Positions 15,001 through 24,000 of a stretch of 64,000 nucleotides of DNA are shown here, piece by piece. Positions within the stretch are counted from its first letter, which is position 1. The number at the start of each line of letters is the position of its first letter. The DNA lies in contig JAUZTB010000076.1 of the NCBI GenBank assembly GCA_034780895.1, forward strand, positions 22,110,912-22,174,911. Reading direction: 5' to 3'. Source of the DNA: Rhynchobatus australiae. Lineage: Eukaryota. The position numbers are program-made.

Positions 15001-18000
15001 AAGTATCAGTAGATGTAACATTGTTTAATGAGTATCATTGTGCAAGTATCAACAGAAGCAATTGCTTATCAATTTCCAAAGCAACTCTCTCAAGTGGCCA
15101 CCCGCGGTGAAATTGGTGGCCTGTGTTCTTATGAGACAATGGTGTCTGATTACTGCAGGGAGGTTACATCTAAATAGGTTTTTTTTCTCAAGACTGGTTC
15201 TCATTTGAATTTAATAATATTTATGGGAGCTCGTTCGTATGTACAGGTATCCGTAAGTTGGGTGTTTGTAACCCGGAGAGACCCTGTAAACATTATTATT
15301 ATAAAATATGTATATTTAAAATATTTAACTCATGAATAAGATTTACATGTTTAAAGGAAGGGGCAGAAGCGTGGGGCAACCAAAGGGCAATCTGGACATG
15401 TGCACAGTGGGTTAAATGGGCCTGTGCTGTGCTATGCTTCCATTATACTGTACCATGCTAATCATCTGTTTCTGTGAGTGGGATTGCCAGATCTACATCT
15501 CCTTTTGCTGGAGATGGTTGCCAATTCAATTAAGATTCCAAAATTCATTTCTCTGAAGTTCCAAACAGTTAACGGTGCACGAAAGTTTCCAAACTACCAA
15601 TATGTAGGAGTCACCATCATGGACGCATGAAACGGGTGATTCCAAGAATTCTGTGATCCCATTTCCATTCTGAGATAAATTATAGCGTTATTCTTCTATT
15701 TGCTTTGTTTTACAGATAGATTTCTGCATGATAATAGGTCCAGGAGACGGGAATCAGCCTTGATACACATCTGGAGTTGTACTGGAGCAGTCAGGTTTTT
15801 GAAGAGATCTTCCTTCTTGTACCTCTGAAAAGTAATTTCTTTTTTAATGCTTCTGAAACCTCCATGTTTTACTTCAATGACCTACACATGTCTACAATTT
15901 TTTTCAATGTTTCATATTTATGTATCTGCATTTTAGGCATGTTCGGTTTGCAGGAGCACAAATTTGCATTGGAGCAGAAGATGTCATAATCTACACTGGT
16001 CTGATTGTTTACAATAGCTGCATCTTACCTTGGATTGGAAAAAAAAGTGCTTGGGCCTTGCAAGAAAGAAAATGATTATTTGCAAGTAGCCTAAATAAGC
16101 TTCATTTTTAAAATTATTGGCAGGCCCTATTTTGGCTTTAGATGTAAGCTCAGAGTTTCCCATGGACTGCAAGATACTGCCTGCTGTGGCTGGCTGGGTT
16201 CCTGGCAGAGTGATTTGATTTAATAATGTAAAATCACATTGCCAGGGATTACCAACCTGTCACCAGCTATTGCCGACAACTCCTTGCTGAAAAATGCATT
16301 TTGCTATTGGGGAGAAAAGAATTGTGGATTTTTCCACATTCTTAACAATTAGGGAATGAATAGACCACAAAAAAGGCTGAGGACATATCTGGTTTGCCAT
16401 CTGCCTTCTTGATGATAACGTGGCAGATATATTCTGCTCTCAGACATTAAGGGTGAGGAACCTCTCCAACTTTTATGATATCCTCGAAGATGGAAAGATT
16501 GTAATCAAACAAGGGGTCATTCAATATTAGGCAATAGTGTAAAATGCACAGCATCATTTGGTGATCAATTAAACATAACCCCCGAGTACTGTTTCCTTTG
16601 AAATTAATGAAAATGAGAATCAGGAAATAGCTAGCCATCAGGAATTTTACCCTATTGCCTAACAACACCCACAGACCAAAATCAGCTAGTTTTTATATAA
16701 CATTTTGAATGTAGGTGTTCCACAGGAACACTATTAAATAAAATTTGCAACCAGGGCAGAGAAGGAGATAAAGGGGCAGATTACCAAAACCTTCTTCAAA
16801 GAATCAGATTTTACAGAGCATCTTAAATGGAGTTAGAAACGTTTAGCAAGAGAATTACAAAGCTTTAAGGCTTTGGCAAATGAAGGCATAATATTTTTCC
16901 AATGTTAGCTTTGGCTTGAACACAATCGATAGTCAGAAGGGAGCTCATGCTTGTGTCCTTGGTGTGCTGCTTACCTTCAGCTGTACTAATTGGGTGGGTG
17001 GTAAGGAACAAGACCTGGGTTAAGATTACCCCCAGTTTTTCTCAAGAATGGTTTTATTCTAACATTCACTTTTAATCGAATGCATTTATTAGGGTGGCCA
17101 GCACATCAATGCAAAAGGATTATTTGTAAAATCTGGTGATCCTCAGTTTGAAAGATGTATTGAAAATCGAGAAATCTACAATCGCTGGAAATCTGAAACA
17201 AAACTAGAAAATGTTGGAAATGTTTAGCAGGTCGGGCAGCATCTGTGGAAAGAGAAACAGAGTTATTGTTTCAGGTCAAACGCCCTTGAAAGAAAGAATT
17301 ATTAATGATGTAAGGAAAACGTGAAAAGGATTGCCAATTCATCCTAAGGCCATAAGCTCACCCATTTACATTGCCAATTGGCCATTCATTTCCAATAATT
17401 TTCCAATCAGAAAGATTGGAAAGTGGGTTCCTGCCTTAAAATGGAACAAAAACTACCAAGATAACTCAGTTATTAACTTTTGTCTAAAAACTGCATCAGG
17501 GTAAAAATTGCACAAGGTCACCTTCAGAGAGAGAACCAGAGCTGACAGAGTTAATTGTGCAGGTATAAAATCGAATCTTCCCCATCCAAGAAAAATATAT
17601 CATGACAAAATATACTCCTGTGTTTAGTTGCTTGTTTTATGCTCCTCCNNNNNNNNNNNNNNNNNNNNNNNNNNNNNNNNNNNNNNNNNNNNNNNNNNNN
17701 NNNNNNNNNNNNNNNNNNNNNNNNNNNNNNNNNNNNNNNNNNNNNNNNTTACTTGTGCAGGTATAAAAGCGAATCTTCCCCCTCCAAGAAAAATATATCA
17801 GGACAAAATAGACGCCTGTGTTTAGTTGCTTGTTTTAAGCTCCTCCTTTTGGTTTATATAAAAAAAAAGACTGAGACTGTTGACTTCTTTTGAAAAACAA
17901 AAGCAAATTCTGCCTTGTCTGTACCGACAGGAGGAGTGAGCCTGTGTCCTTGATGTGCCAGTGTTTTGTTTGCTACTCACCTTCAGCTGTTTCAGATTAT

Positions 18001-21000: not shown

Positions 21001-24000
21001 ATTGTGGGACATTTGTGGTGCTGGAGAAATGAAAATGCTATTAGAGACAGGCCACCATAGAATATGTCCATCCTGAGGGCTCCAGCCAAAGGGCATCAGA
21101 GCATGTTTAACATGTTTCACCCAGAGGAAGAATCATCCTGAAGCTCAAGAGCCTCCTTTGCATTTGGCACAAAAGGTTATCCCTGGGGTGTCATTGATAT
21201 TCTTTGATTGATAGGATGTTGGAATCATTACGTAGATTCACTCTGGGCCATTAAAGGTTGCATAAGTCATAGTTTATTTCTAAAAGTAGAGATTTCTTCA
21301 ATCAAAGACAGAGTGTGTCCTTTGAAGTATGTTTTAAGACCAGCTTGTTTTTATCTCTGTGTGTGCAATGTTTTGTTTGGATTGTGCAAATATGAAACCT
21401 AATAAAATTTTAACTATTGAAAATGCGGCAACAAAGGATGACTGAGAAACCCCAGCAAATTTAGAGATCTAATATTTATAGAGTTTTACAACATATAGTG
21501 CCACGTAGCAATTCATCTGAACACGATTCCTCCTTAAACTCCAAACTTCCTGTATACATGTGTCCACACCCTGTTGCATTCTCCTCAATTCATCTCCACA
21601 GGAACAAAGCATTTCATGGAGAGTTTATACCCACTGAAATTGGGCATTAAAAGTAGTGAAGTGTTTATCACCGGGTGATTATGTTGCATTGCTTATTCCT
21701 GCTATAAATAAAACAGAAATGTTAACATGGGGATTTTTTAACTAAAATATTTTTTTACCTAATAACTTAAATGCATTTCTCTGACCATTTTTATGACATC
21801 AGAATTTTCCTAGCAATACTTACTAAATGCAACTTTAATGTCAGTTATAAAAAAGGGATATATGAGAATTTGCTGCCTAAAGATTTGTACATCCCAGTTG
21901 GTAAAATTGCTAATAGTTACTTTATGCTCAATCGTACCTCAGCAACCTGGTCCACTTGAGAACAACACATTTTGCTTAGAAATTGCCTTGTGCAAATTAT
22001 CACTTTTAATTTATTAACATTTCTATTTAAATAGCAGATAGAAATGTAAAATATTATTACACCTTAGGCTGATGTGTCTCTGAGGATGGAGTAAAGGTGG
22101 ACCAGCACTGTTGGACTGCCAGTACTGTTTCAGGTAAAACTAAAGGGTGATTATTTTAAGGAATGGTACTTTGTGTAAGAGAGGGGACTGTGAAATTGCA
22201 TAAGATATAATGCAGATATCTNNNNNNNNNNNNNNNNNNNNNNNNNNNNNNNNNNNNNNNNNNNNNNNNNNNNNNNNNNNNNNNNNNNNNNNNNNNNNNN
22301 NNNNNNNNNNNNNNNNNNNNNTGCAGATATCTGACTCAACAGCTTTATATTGATTCATCTGACTTGCCATTTGGAACTAAATGCTTTACAGGGACAGGAA
22401 GGTGAATTGTATTAGTTCTATTCTTCTTCCACATGATTTTTCAGAGTGGCAAAAATGCCCCCAACCATAACTTCCTCAATTTCTAGTCTCTCTGAATGAA
22501 GCAATTGCAGAGCCTTACACATTATTAAAACATTTCTTGATTAGAAATAAGGACTGGCTCTCCTTTCATAAGAGAACAGGATTTGCTATAGACTAATGCT
22601 GAACATGAATTGTATTGATTAAACCATTTTTGAATACAATAGTCAAATGTATGGCCATATGGATTGGTGTATTGAGCTTAAATCTATTTAATATTAACCT
22701 TCATTTAAACTGGTTTCCATTGAGATGTATACCTATTAAGAGAAATCCTTAAAGAGTCCTGACTTTGCTAAACTTTCTTAGACATGTTCCCATTTCTGGC
22801 CAGCCCTTACCAGTCTACCCCAAACCCTACAGCTACTAATATCACCCATCATGTTTATTTTACTCACTGGGCATTGCTAGTAGTAAATTGATAGCATCCT
22901 GATTAATAAATTACTCCGTAATAGGATAATGATCATTCAGATTAATTTCTTTTTTCTTGTTCAGACACACTGTAATATAATGAGCAACAATTGAAGAGAA
23001 GATCAGAGTGGGTGATGCATTCCTGAAACTGTATCACAGTATTGAATAGCTGATCACATAATATGTAGCATTGCATTACAGATAATTGTATGGCACCTAA
23101 CAGTGTTTGAGTCAAGTTTTAACCTGTGCCCGAATCTTCAAAATACTTCTTTTCATCCAAGTTATTTCATTCCATCAAGCCTACTATCTCTCAATCAATT
23201 ATTCTGGCCCTGGTATAAGGACGGCCAAGTCCCTAGAAGACACAATGCTAATCTATGGCAGAGAAAATTATTTGTTTTGTAGATGTTGCTTGAATACATC
23301 TAGATTACCAACTAAAACAATGTTGACAACTGGAGAATCTGGGCCCAATCTCCTGTGCCTACTGAGCTGATAACAGTTGATATTGTCTGCACTGGCTCAG
23401 TTCAGCAGGAACAGGAGTTGTTCCCCTTTGACCACCTGAGATGGATGAATACACTGAACGTCCTTCTTTGGAAATATGAGAAGAACAACACAGACTCAAA
23501 CAAATGGAAGGAGTTCTTGGTCCCTCACCTTTAATGGAGACAGCCTTTATTATACCTTAATATGGTTGCCCTTACTTCTACCAGTGTCTCCCTATAACAA
23601 ATCCACAAAATACTCATCAAATCCAGAATGAATCGCTTTTCAGAGGTGTGGATCAAAGTACTCACAATACTTCTATGCTATTGCTGATCAAAGCTGTAAG
23701 CTTCCTCATAAGATTTAATTGTTTTATATTTCAGCCATACCCATGAGTGTGATGGTAATAATAGGCATAGTCCTAGCAGCTTATCTAGCATTATGGTGCA
23801 AGTGCACTGGAAGTCTGACTTTGTACACCACAAATCTATATCTGGATCCAGGGTTACCACATCCTGTTCCACAAATGGTAAGTTAGCAATCTCAGCAAAG
23901 AATTGGAAGTCAAGCACCCCATATAGGGAGGGAGTCAATGCCATGGCAACCCTTGCAACTTTTTAGAGGTAACATACTCATCATTTTAGCCATTGAAGGT

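What the first reader, a model, noticed from the sequence alone, without database searches (positions are those of the whole stretch)
16183..23425. Complete but widely spaced miR-23/27/24 cluster, absent from the ORF track
Seen: three hairpins on the + strand in canonical 23-27-24 order, with 3p arms starting at 16233, 18117 and 23393 (spacings of about 1.9 and 5.3 kb; span about 7.2 kb, including two 100-N gaps). Established: both human clusters (23a/27a/24-2 and 23b/27b/24-1) span under about 1 kb, and the b cluster lies in an AOPEP intron. No AOPEP-like exons were recognised here. Inference: this is an expanded cluster with transposon fragments between the hairpins, which could uncouple processing of the three miRNAs.
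[Added by the scan's program, not by the reader: the finding's places include an assembly gap (unread letters, written N; its length is only estimated) at 17649 to 17748, 22222 to 22321. Whether the letters on both sides are continuous or in frame is not known: test that first.]
Basis: partly seen in the sequence, partly recalled or inferred. Interest (0 to 1): 0.7.

Follow-up and report, generated by a model that had tools for sequence, protein, structure and literature searches.

The report
Stretched but ordinary miR-23/27/24 cluster
Three deeply conserved microRNA hairpins (miR-23, miR-27, miR-24) sit in their usual order on one strand but spread over about 7 kb instead of under 1 kb as in mammals, which most likely reflects a roomy, repeat-rich vertebrate genome and not a new kind of gene arrangement.

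Summary
Rfam finds mir-23 (16188-16261), mir-27 (18064-18144) and mir-24 (23348-23417), all on the + strand and well above the gathering scores, and nothing else in the 64 kb. All three fold as strong single hairpins (z -5.1 to -6.0).

Each hairpin lies on its own contig. The two 100-N gaps are flanked by duplicated contig ends: 98 nt at 93% identity, and 11 nt exact. They look like uncollapsed overlaps. Adjacency is therefore supported, and the true span is about 6.9-7.2 kb.

Only two short copies (about 95 nt each) of one interspersed repeat were found in the spacers, and repeat coverage there equals the window average. Both spacings are under the usual 10-kb cluster limit, and enlarged spacing in fishes is already published. 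All three hairpins look like self-sufficient Drosha substrates. Uncoupled processing is thus possible but not indicated. The host gene and the organism remain undetermined. I do not take the window for human.

Verdict: a known cluster with stretched spacing; low interest.

The parts
16188..16261 (+). mir-23 precursor hairpin; 3p arm from 16233, 5p arm from about 16195-16196
   Evidence: Rfam RF00642 74.7 bits, E 4.9e-15. Fold -42.1 kcal/mol, z -5.99. The 3p 21-mer is contained in primers labelled hsa/mmu-miR-23b-3p.
18064..18144 (+). mir-27 precursor hairpin; 3p arm from 18117
   Evidence: Rfam RF00644 72.1 bits, E 2.5e-14. Fold -44.2 kcal/mol, z -5.82. The 3p 21-mer equals the primer labelled Hsa/Mmu-mir-27a.
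23348..23417 (+). mir-24 precursor hairpin; 3p arm from 23393
   Evidence: Rfam RF00178 85.4 bits, E 5.7e-19. Fold -40.5 kcal/mol, z -5.06. A 17-mer of the 5p arm occurs in a miR-24-1-5p expression oligo.
16262..18063 (+). spacer 1 (1802 nt as written, 1604 if the gap is a collapsed overlap); GC 38.3%
   Evidence: Contains one interspersed-repeat copy and gap 1.
18145..23347 (+). spacer 2 (5203 nt as written, 5092 if the gap is a collapsed overlap); GC 35.9%
   Evidence: Contains one repeat copy, a local 140-nt duplication (18949-19086 / 19397-19530, 72%) and gap 2.
17551..17846 (.). gap 1 (17649-17748, 100 N) with its duplicated flanks 17551-17648 and 17749-17846
   Evidence: The flanks align in register with 91 of 98 bases identical. 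The 7 mismatches include 0 transitions, and 6 are A>C or T>G.
22211..22332 (.). gap 2 (22222-22321, 100 N) with 11 identical bases on each side
   Evidence: Exact suffix = prefix of 11 nt.
17186..17287 (+). copy of a short interspersed repeat inside spacer 1
   Evidence: the repeat finder families D1-D3; blastn to 4 other window copies at 76-81%; it was a seed of the nhmmer model.
19302..19396 (+). second, shorter copy of the same repeat inside spacer 2
   Evidence: nhmmer E 2.9e-12, not a seed; blastn 84-86% over 37-44 nt.

Best explanation
This is one orthologue of the vertebrate miR-23~27~24 microRNA cluster in a non-human vertebrate genome, with its inter-hairpin DNA stretched about eight-fold relative to mammals.

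Shown: there are three canonical precursor hairpins in the conserved 23-27-24 order on one strand. Their mature 3p arms are identical to published miR-23b-3p, miR-27a-3p and miR-24-3p-type sequences. Each has a stem that continues about a helical turn below the expected Drosha cut.

Inferred: RNA polymerase II transcribes the three as part of one long primary transcript, quite possibly an intron of a host gene, since no CpG island or exon was found in the window. Drosha/DGCR8 excises each hairpin independently, Dicer trims it, and the 3p strands act as the usual seed-matched repressors.

Also inferred: the wide spacing is neutral genome bloat (repeat insertions and unconstrained spacer) and not a regulatory innovation.
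For: Rfam gives 3 of 3 hairpins above gathering score and nothing else in the window. The sense strand outscores the antisense by 30-40 bits. Folds have z -5.1 to -6.0, with 0 of 200 shuffles as stable. The stems extend beyond the expected cleavage sites.

A 90-nt sliding fold over 14000-26000 on both strands found 8 loci at or below -30 kcal/mol. Six are these three hairpins on their two strands. The other two have weak z-scores of -1.81 and -2.95. There are thus no extra hairpins and no decayed duplicates.

The mature-arm strings match labelled primers or oligos in papers. Contig adjacency is supported by duplicated gap flanks. The same signature occurs at 5 of the 8 gaps written as exactly 100 N and at 0 of the 10 other gaps.

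The spacings of 1.6-1.8 and 5.1-5.2 kb are under the 10-kb cluster boundary, which is supported by EST and nascent-RNA data according to PMC13686912 (passage). They are also under the 50-kb limit used in bioRxiv 10.1101/2021.09.01.458616, which lists Mir-23 + Mir-24 + Mir-27 as a cluster of the gnathostome ancestor (passages). PMC4144971 reports enlarged cluster distances in fishes (passage).

The window looks like bulk non-coding DNA of a large methylated genome. CpG o/e is 0.20, there is no CpG island, GC is about 39%, there are 13 hits of one short repeat in 64 kb plus a LINE RT fragment, and no convincing exon.
Against: There are no expression data, so neither maturation nor co-transcription is shown. 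Each hairpin lies on a different contig, so order and spacing rest on scaffolding plus the flank overlaps. The 27-to-24 spacer (about 5.1 kb) is beyond the roughly 2-3 kb over which cluster assistance is reported to work.

The spacers hold 18 AATAAA/ATTAAA hexamers on the + strand. I did not test this count against shuffles, and in DNA that is about 63% A+T many are expected.

The expected CNNC motif sits at the canonical offset only downstream of mir-24. The offsets come from recall and were applied.

The 'genome bloat' reading could not be tested because organism, genome size and orthologous spacings are unknown here. Only about 190 nt of the spacers could be assigned to a repeat family.
Confidence: 0.85

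Rival explanations
1. The stretching has functional consequences. mir-24 (and perhaps mir-27) is no longer processed or transcribed together with mir-23, because the hairpins are too far apart for Microprocessor hand-over or because a new promoter or terminator lies in the spacers.
For: Spacer 2 is 5.1-5.2 kb and spacer 1 is 1.6-1.8 kb. Cluster assistance is reported to weaken or vanish beyond about 2-3 kb (PMC13686912 passage). In human an intragenic promoter and alternative splicing already treat miR-24-1 differently from its neighbours (same passage). PAS-like hexamers occur in the spacers.
Against: Cluster assistance matters for suboptimal hairpins. Here all three fold as long, stable, single hairpins with extended basal stems. 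The distances are within the 10-kb range where co-transcription is the rule. No promoter-like CpG island lies anywhere in the window. The PAS hexamers were not shown to exceed chance.
Confidence: 0.1
2. The wide spacing is an assembly artefact. Contigs may be wrongly joined or duplicated around the two gaps, so that the true cluster is compact or the hairpins belong to different paralogous clusters.
For: Each hairpin is on its own contig. The assembly is a draft with 18 N runs in 64 kb. Uncollapsed overlaps show that gap handling was imperfect. The mature arms mix b-type (23, 24-1) and a-type (27) states.
Against: The contig ends on both sides of each gap share sequence in exact register: 98 nt at 93% and 11 nt exact. 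That argues for true adjacency. Even without the gaps, 1.4 kb of unique sequence separates mir-23 from gap 1 and 4.1 kb separates mir-27 from gap 2, so the spacing cannot collapse to mammalian size. Order and strand match the canonical cluster. One copy of each family is present, not two.
Confidence: 0.04
3. The hairpins are decaying, no longer expressed copies (a dead paralogous cluster) whose spacing has drifted because nothing constrains it.
For: No expression data are available. No host-gene exon or promoter was recognised.
Against: The mature 3p arms carry no change from functional mammalian sequences. Both arms remain complementary, and the Rfam scores are 22-35 bits above cut-off. A dead copy in a CpG-depleted, mutating genome would be expected to have lost this.
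Confidence: 0.01

Closest known systems
Mammalian miR-23b~27b~24-1 cluster (intron of AOPEP)
   Same: It has the same three families, the same order and the same strand. The mir-23 3p string and the mir-24 5p string match labelled miR-23b-3p and miR-24-1-5p reagents. The 23-to-27 distance is shorter than the 27-to-24 distance here; by my recollection the same is true in human.
   Different: The span is about 6.9-7.2 kb against about 0.85 kb in mouse (PMC4943961 passage). The mir-27 3p arm carries the miR-27a state at the one position that separates 27a from 27b. No AOPEP exon was recognised in the window, but this was not properly testable.
Mammalian miR-23a~27a~24-2 cluster (intergenic)
   Same: It has the same three families and order. 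The mir-27 3p arm is identical to miR-27a. No host exon is seen, which would fit an intergenic site.
   Different: The mir-23 3p arm is the 23b type, and the mir-24 5p string is the 24-1 type. The span is many-fold larger.
Fish miR-23/27/24 clusters
   Same: PMC4144971 states that in fishes the physical distances of these clusters are enlarged while still under 10 kb (passage). That is the situation here.
   Different: Fishes in that paper also have extra family members (27c/d/e, multiple 23a/24 copies). Here exactly one copy of each family is present. I could not see the actual distances (Figure 1B, supplements).
Clusters that depend on 'cluster assistance' (miR-144~451, miR-15a~16-1)
   Same: They are polycistronic hairpins on one transcript, where distance matters.
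   Different: Those clusters have a structurally suboptimal member and spacers of about 120-250 nt. Here all three hairpins look optimal and the spacers are 1.6-5.2 kb.

Membership tests
mir-23 precursor family (RF00642) | Covariance-model score above the curated gathering score, full-length match | tested here: met
   74.7 bits against 52, model positions 1-73 of 73.
mir-27 precursor family (RF00644) | Covariance-model score above the curated gathering score, full-length match | tested here: met
   72.1 bits against 48.5, model positions 1-80 of 80.
mir-24 precursor family (RF00178) | Covariance-model score above the curated gathering score, full-length match | tested here: met
   85.4 bits against 50, model positions 1-69 of 69.
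Canonical animal miRNA gene | Stable single hairpin of about 35 bp with the mature arm in the stem | tested here: met
   z -5.1 to -6.0, 0 of 200 shuffles as stable. The stems extend below the expected Drosha site.
Canonical animal miRNA gene | Small-RNA reads from both arms with 2-nt 3' overhangs | not testable with these tools
   No read data were available.
miR-23~27~24 cluster | One member of each family, order 23-27-24, same strand | tested here: met
miR-23~27~24 cluster | Neighbouring hairpins within the usual cluster distance (under 10 kb; others use 50 kb) | tested here: met
   1802 and 5203 nt between hairpins. The thresholds come from passages seen.
miR-23~27~24 cluster | Co-transcription as one primary transcript | not testable with these tools
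   No transcript data. No CpG island in the window.
b paralogue (miR-23b~27b~24-1) | Location in an intron of AOPEP on the same strand | tested here: inconclusive
   No Pfam family for 19 of the 20 ORFs tried; the exception was a weak RVT_1 match. The scan for M1-peptidase motifs found nothing. Those motifs are recalled, and they lie in exons far upstream of the miRNA intron (intron 15). No vertebrate protein or genome set was on hand.
b paralogue (miR-23b~27b~24-1) | b-type states at the positions that separate the paralogous mature sequences | tested here: inconclusive
   mir-23 3p is the 23b type. The mir-24 5p 17-mer is the 24-1 type. mir-27 3p is the 27a type. The states are mixed, and they are weak guides to orthology outside mammals.

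The most novel reading that the evidence does not exclude
In this lineage the cluster has been stretched past the distance over which the Microprocessor can be handed from one hairpin to the next. mir-24, about 5 kb downstream, would then have become an effectively independent gene with its own transcription or processing control. That would be a natural experiment on how much spacing an ancient polycistron tolerates.
Probability: 0.1. Interest if true: 0.4.

Novelty: already known. Interest (0 to 1): 0.12.

Why it matters
It matters little in itself. The finding adds one more orthologue of a cluster already placed in the ancestor of jawed vertebrates. It shows that the cluster keeps its order, strand and mature sequences when its spacers grow about eight-fold. 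If spacing were surveyed across vertebrates of different genome size, loci like this one would show whether polycistronic miRNA clusters resist genome expansion or simply scale with it. They would also show whether the 2-3 kb limit of cluster assistance leaves any trace in evolution.

A practical point for the scan: in this assembly, 100-N gaps are often uncollapsed contig overlaps, so distances across them are slightly overestimated.

Tried and rejected
1. Extra or degenerate miRNA hairpins in or near the cluster. The permissive Rfam scans and a sliding fold found none. The two other stable windows have weak z-scores.

In one search I sent 10 of the 84 ORFs of at least 90 aa, chosen as long and N-free or repeat-like. 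One of the 10 gave a weak RVT_1 match (E 0.095, 12.8 bits against cut-off 29.6). In one search I sent 10 of the 26 ORFs of at least 65 aa that overlap 15000-24500, leaving out 16 that ran through N or overlapped hairpins or each other. None of the 10 matched.

3. A scan for AOPEP/M1-peptidase motifs found nothing, but the test is nearly uninformative (see the membership test).

4. Organism. A protein search with a repeat-derived ORF found no homologue. The Atlas look-alikes of the RT-like ORF are eukaryotic, and one is named jockey-like reverse transcriptase (a lead only). ARAGORN found 0 tRNA-like heads. A 15-mer of the repeat core occurs in only one unrelated paper. The taxon stays unknown. 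My impression that the repeat resembles abundant shark or ray SINEs is recollection only.

5. Papers on the spacing of this cluster in sharks or gar. Among the 20 and 12 listed titles I saw none on the subject.

6. No vertebrate genome collection was available. The collections on hand are bacterial/archaeal, phage, plasmid and E. coli, and the metagenome and viral contig sets were closed. Orthologous spacing therefore stayed unchecked.

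Full report
What is there. A scan of the whole 64-kb window against Rfam at the curated thresholds returns exactly three matches, all on the + strand. They are mir-23 at 16188-16261 (74.7 bits, E 4.9e-15), mir-27 at 18064-18144 (72.1 bits, E 2.5e-14) and mir-24 at 23348-23417 (85.4 bits, E 5.7e-19), each covering its model end to end. 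Permissive scans of 8000-32000 and of the whole window add only the reverse strands of the same three loci, all below their cut-offs (44.8, 42.2, 39.7 bits). Folded with about 10 nt of flank, the three give single hairpins of -42.1, -44.2 and -40.5 kcal/mol, with z-scores of -5.99, -5.82 and -5.06. None of 200 dinucleotide shuffles reaches these energies. The start-to-start spacings are 1884 and 5276 nt.

The gaps were tested first, as asked. The window has 18 runs of N, and eight of them are exactly 100 N. My notebook says nine; eight is the correct count. Each hairpin sits on a different contig, so order and spacing depend on the scaffold.

I compared only the letters on either side of each gap. 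At gap 1 (17649-17748), the last 98 nt before the gap align in register with the first 98 nt after it, and 91 of 98 are identical. At gap 2 (22222-22321), the last 11 nt equal the first 11 nt. Three other 100-N gaps in the window show the same thing with exact overlaps of 43, 49 and 53 nt. In total, 5 of the 8 100-N gaps and 0 of the 10 other gaps carry this signature.

None of the seven mismatches at gap 1 is a transition, and six are A>C or T>G. That pattern looks like read error at a contig end and not like divergence of a true tandem repeat; this is my inference.

I conclude that these gaps are probably uncollapsed contig overlaps and that the contigs truly adjoin. The spacers would then be 1604 and 5092 nt instead of 1802 and 5203, giving a span of 6921 to 7230 nt. 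A tandem array hidden in gap 1 cannot be excluded.

What lies between the hairpins. A sliding 90-nt fold over 14000-26000 on both strands found eight loci at or below -30 kcal/mol. Six are the three hairpins on their two strands. The other two (15081-15170 and 25776-25865) have unimpressive z-scores of -1.81 and -2.95. There are thus no extra or decayed hairpins.

Comparing the window with itself shows one short interspersed repeat family. An nhmmer model built from five copies hits 13 places in 64 kb, eight of which were not seeds. One copy lies in spacer 1 (core 17186-17287) and a shorter one lies in spacer 2 (19302-19396). Spacer 2 also holds a local 140-nt duplication (18949-19086 and 19397-19530, 72%).

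Beyond that, the spacers are unique within the window. Self-match coverage of the cluster is 604 of 7030 non-N bases (8.6%) against 5149 of 62454 (8.2%) for the window. It is zero for 20001-28000. None of 10 spacer ORFs matches Pfam. So 'transposon fragments between the hairpins' is true for about 190 nt and unknown for the rest. A species repeat library would be needed.

Surroundings. The window is about 39% G+C and strongly CpG-depleted (o/e 0.20), without any CpG island. It holds no tRNA and no other Rfam family. It has several repeat families and a LINE-like reverse-transcriptase fragment at 51965-52270. That fragment gives Pfam RVT_1 at E 0.095, below cut-off, and its Atlas look-alikes are eukaryotic, one of them named jockey-like RT.

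I found no convincing exon. Nine of the 10 long ORFs tried gave no Pfam match. A scan for recalled M1-peptidase motifs was empty. That scan says little, because in human the cluster lies in intron 15 of AOPEP (PMC13686912 passage), far from the catalytic exons. The host gene therefore stays open, and I built no spliced model.

The organism could not be determined. The one protein search I spent on it found nothing, and no vertebrate sequence collection was available. I do not take the window for human. The cluster is about eight times wider than the mammalian ones, the paralogue states are mixed (next paragraph), and no tool objected to its letters.

Which paralogue. The window's mir-23 3p 21-mer is contained in primers labelled hsa- and mmu-miR-23b-3p (PMC11698795, passage). 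Its mir-27 3p 21-mer equals the primer labelled Hsa/Mmu-mir-27a and differs by one base from the one labelled mir-27b (PMC6962379, passage). A 17-mer of its mir-24 5p arm occurs in a miR-24-1-5p expression oligo (PMC5811426, passage). A 13-mer of its mir-23 5p arm occurs in a paper titled on miR-23b-5p (PMC8520262, search listing only). The locus is thus mostly b-like with an a-type miR-27. Such single-base states are weak evidence of orthology outside mammals.

How it most likely works. Shown: there are three intact, canonical precursor hairpins in the conserved order on one strand, and their stems continue below the expected Drosha cuts. Inferred from established miRNA biology and from the papers read: Pol II transcribes them within one long primary transcript, possibly a host-gene intron. 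The Microprocessor cuts each hairpin out on its own, Dicer follows, and the 3p strands act through their unchanged seeds.

The distances are within the 10-kb boundary, which PMC13686912 says is supported by EST and nascent-RNA data. PMC4144971 and PMC9926789 use the same boundary as their cluster definition. The distances are also far within the 50 kb used in bioRxiv 10.1101/2021.09.01.458616, which lists Mir-23 + Mir-24 + Mir-27 among the clusters of the gnathostome ancestor.

Cluster assistance is reported to fade beyond about 2-3 kb, and spacer 2 is about 5.1 kb. But assistance matters for poor hairpins, and none of these looks poor. I give that reading about 10%.

Against my own reading, nothing here shows expression. 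I did not compare the 18 poly(A)-type hexamers in the spacers with chance. Only mir-24 has a CNNC at the usual offset, and that offset is recalled.

Comparison and novelty. The closest known things are the mammalian miR-23b~27b~24-1 and miR-23a~27a~24-2 clusters. The b cluster lies in an Aopep intron and the a cluster is intergenic (PMC11263685 passage). The mouse b cluster is given as 850 bp (PMC4943961 passage). The fish clusters are also close: PMC4144971 states that their distances are enlarged (passage). I could not see its Figure 1B or its supplements, which may hold the numbers that bear directly on how unusual 7 kb is. My two literature searches for this cluster in sharks or gar listed no paper on its spacing.

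The locus meets every family feature I could test. Co-transcription and small-RNA ends are untestable here, and AOPEP residence is inconclusive. It is an orthologue of a known cluster with wider spacers. I file it as already known, with low interest (0.12).

Noticed in passing
window 17649-17748, 22222-22321, 41006-41105, 52598-52697, 62541-62640: Five of the eight gaps written as exactly 100 N are flanked by the same sequence on both sides: 98 nt at 93% identity, and 11, 43, 49 and 53 nt exact. In this assembly such gaps appear to be uncollapsed contig overlaps, so distances across them are overestimated by 100 nt plus the overlap.
   Followed up: yes
window 23336-23425 (- strand): The antisense of the mir-24 hairpin folds better than the sense strand (-44.4 kcal/mol, z -6.93, against -40.5). 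Rfam scores it 44.8 bits, below cut-off. An antisense miRNA of mir-24 (mir-3074) is described in human, mouse and rat (PMC4144971 passage), so an antisense product here is conceivable.
   Followed up: partly
window 1567-1941, 4845-4971, 6979-7095, 10847-11207, 17057-17429, 19302-19396, 33748-34133, 38745-39135, 41239-41398, 42257-42361, 42946-43008, 43447-43498, 56160-56226: A short interspersed repeat with a core of about 100-160 nt gives 13 nhmmer hits in 64 kb (five were seeds taken with 150-nt flanks). The family was not identified. No tRNA-like head was found by ARAGORN.
   Followed up: partly
window 8447-8662 (-), 51453-51716 (+), 56385-56774 (+): A second repeat family of about 330 nt has three copies at 84-96% identity. 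A related shorter family lies at 9433-9501, 26140-26184, 48838-48906 and 49904-49976.
   Followed up: no
window 51965-52270 (+): This ORF looks like a fragment of a non-LTR retrotransposon reverse transcriptase. Pfam RVT_1 gives E 0.095, below cut-off. The Atlas look-alikes are eukaryotic, one named jockey-like RT, with scores 0.93-0.95.
   Followed up: partly
window 18949-19086 and 19397-19530: A local direct duplication of about 140 nt (72% identity) lies inside spacer 2, and its second copy begins right after the repeat copy at 19302-19396. It may be the remains of a composite insertion.
   Followed up: no
window 16233-16253 and 18117-18137: The cluster mixes paralogue states. The miR-23 3p arm is the 23b type, while the miR-27 3p arm is the 27a type at the single position that separates the mammalian paralogues.
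   Followed up: partly
window 28489-29063 and 40656-41309: These are stretches of simple or low-complexity sequence: TG/CA-rich around 28.5-29.1 kb and CT-rich around 40.7-41.3 kb. They produce long spurious ORFs.
   Followed up: no
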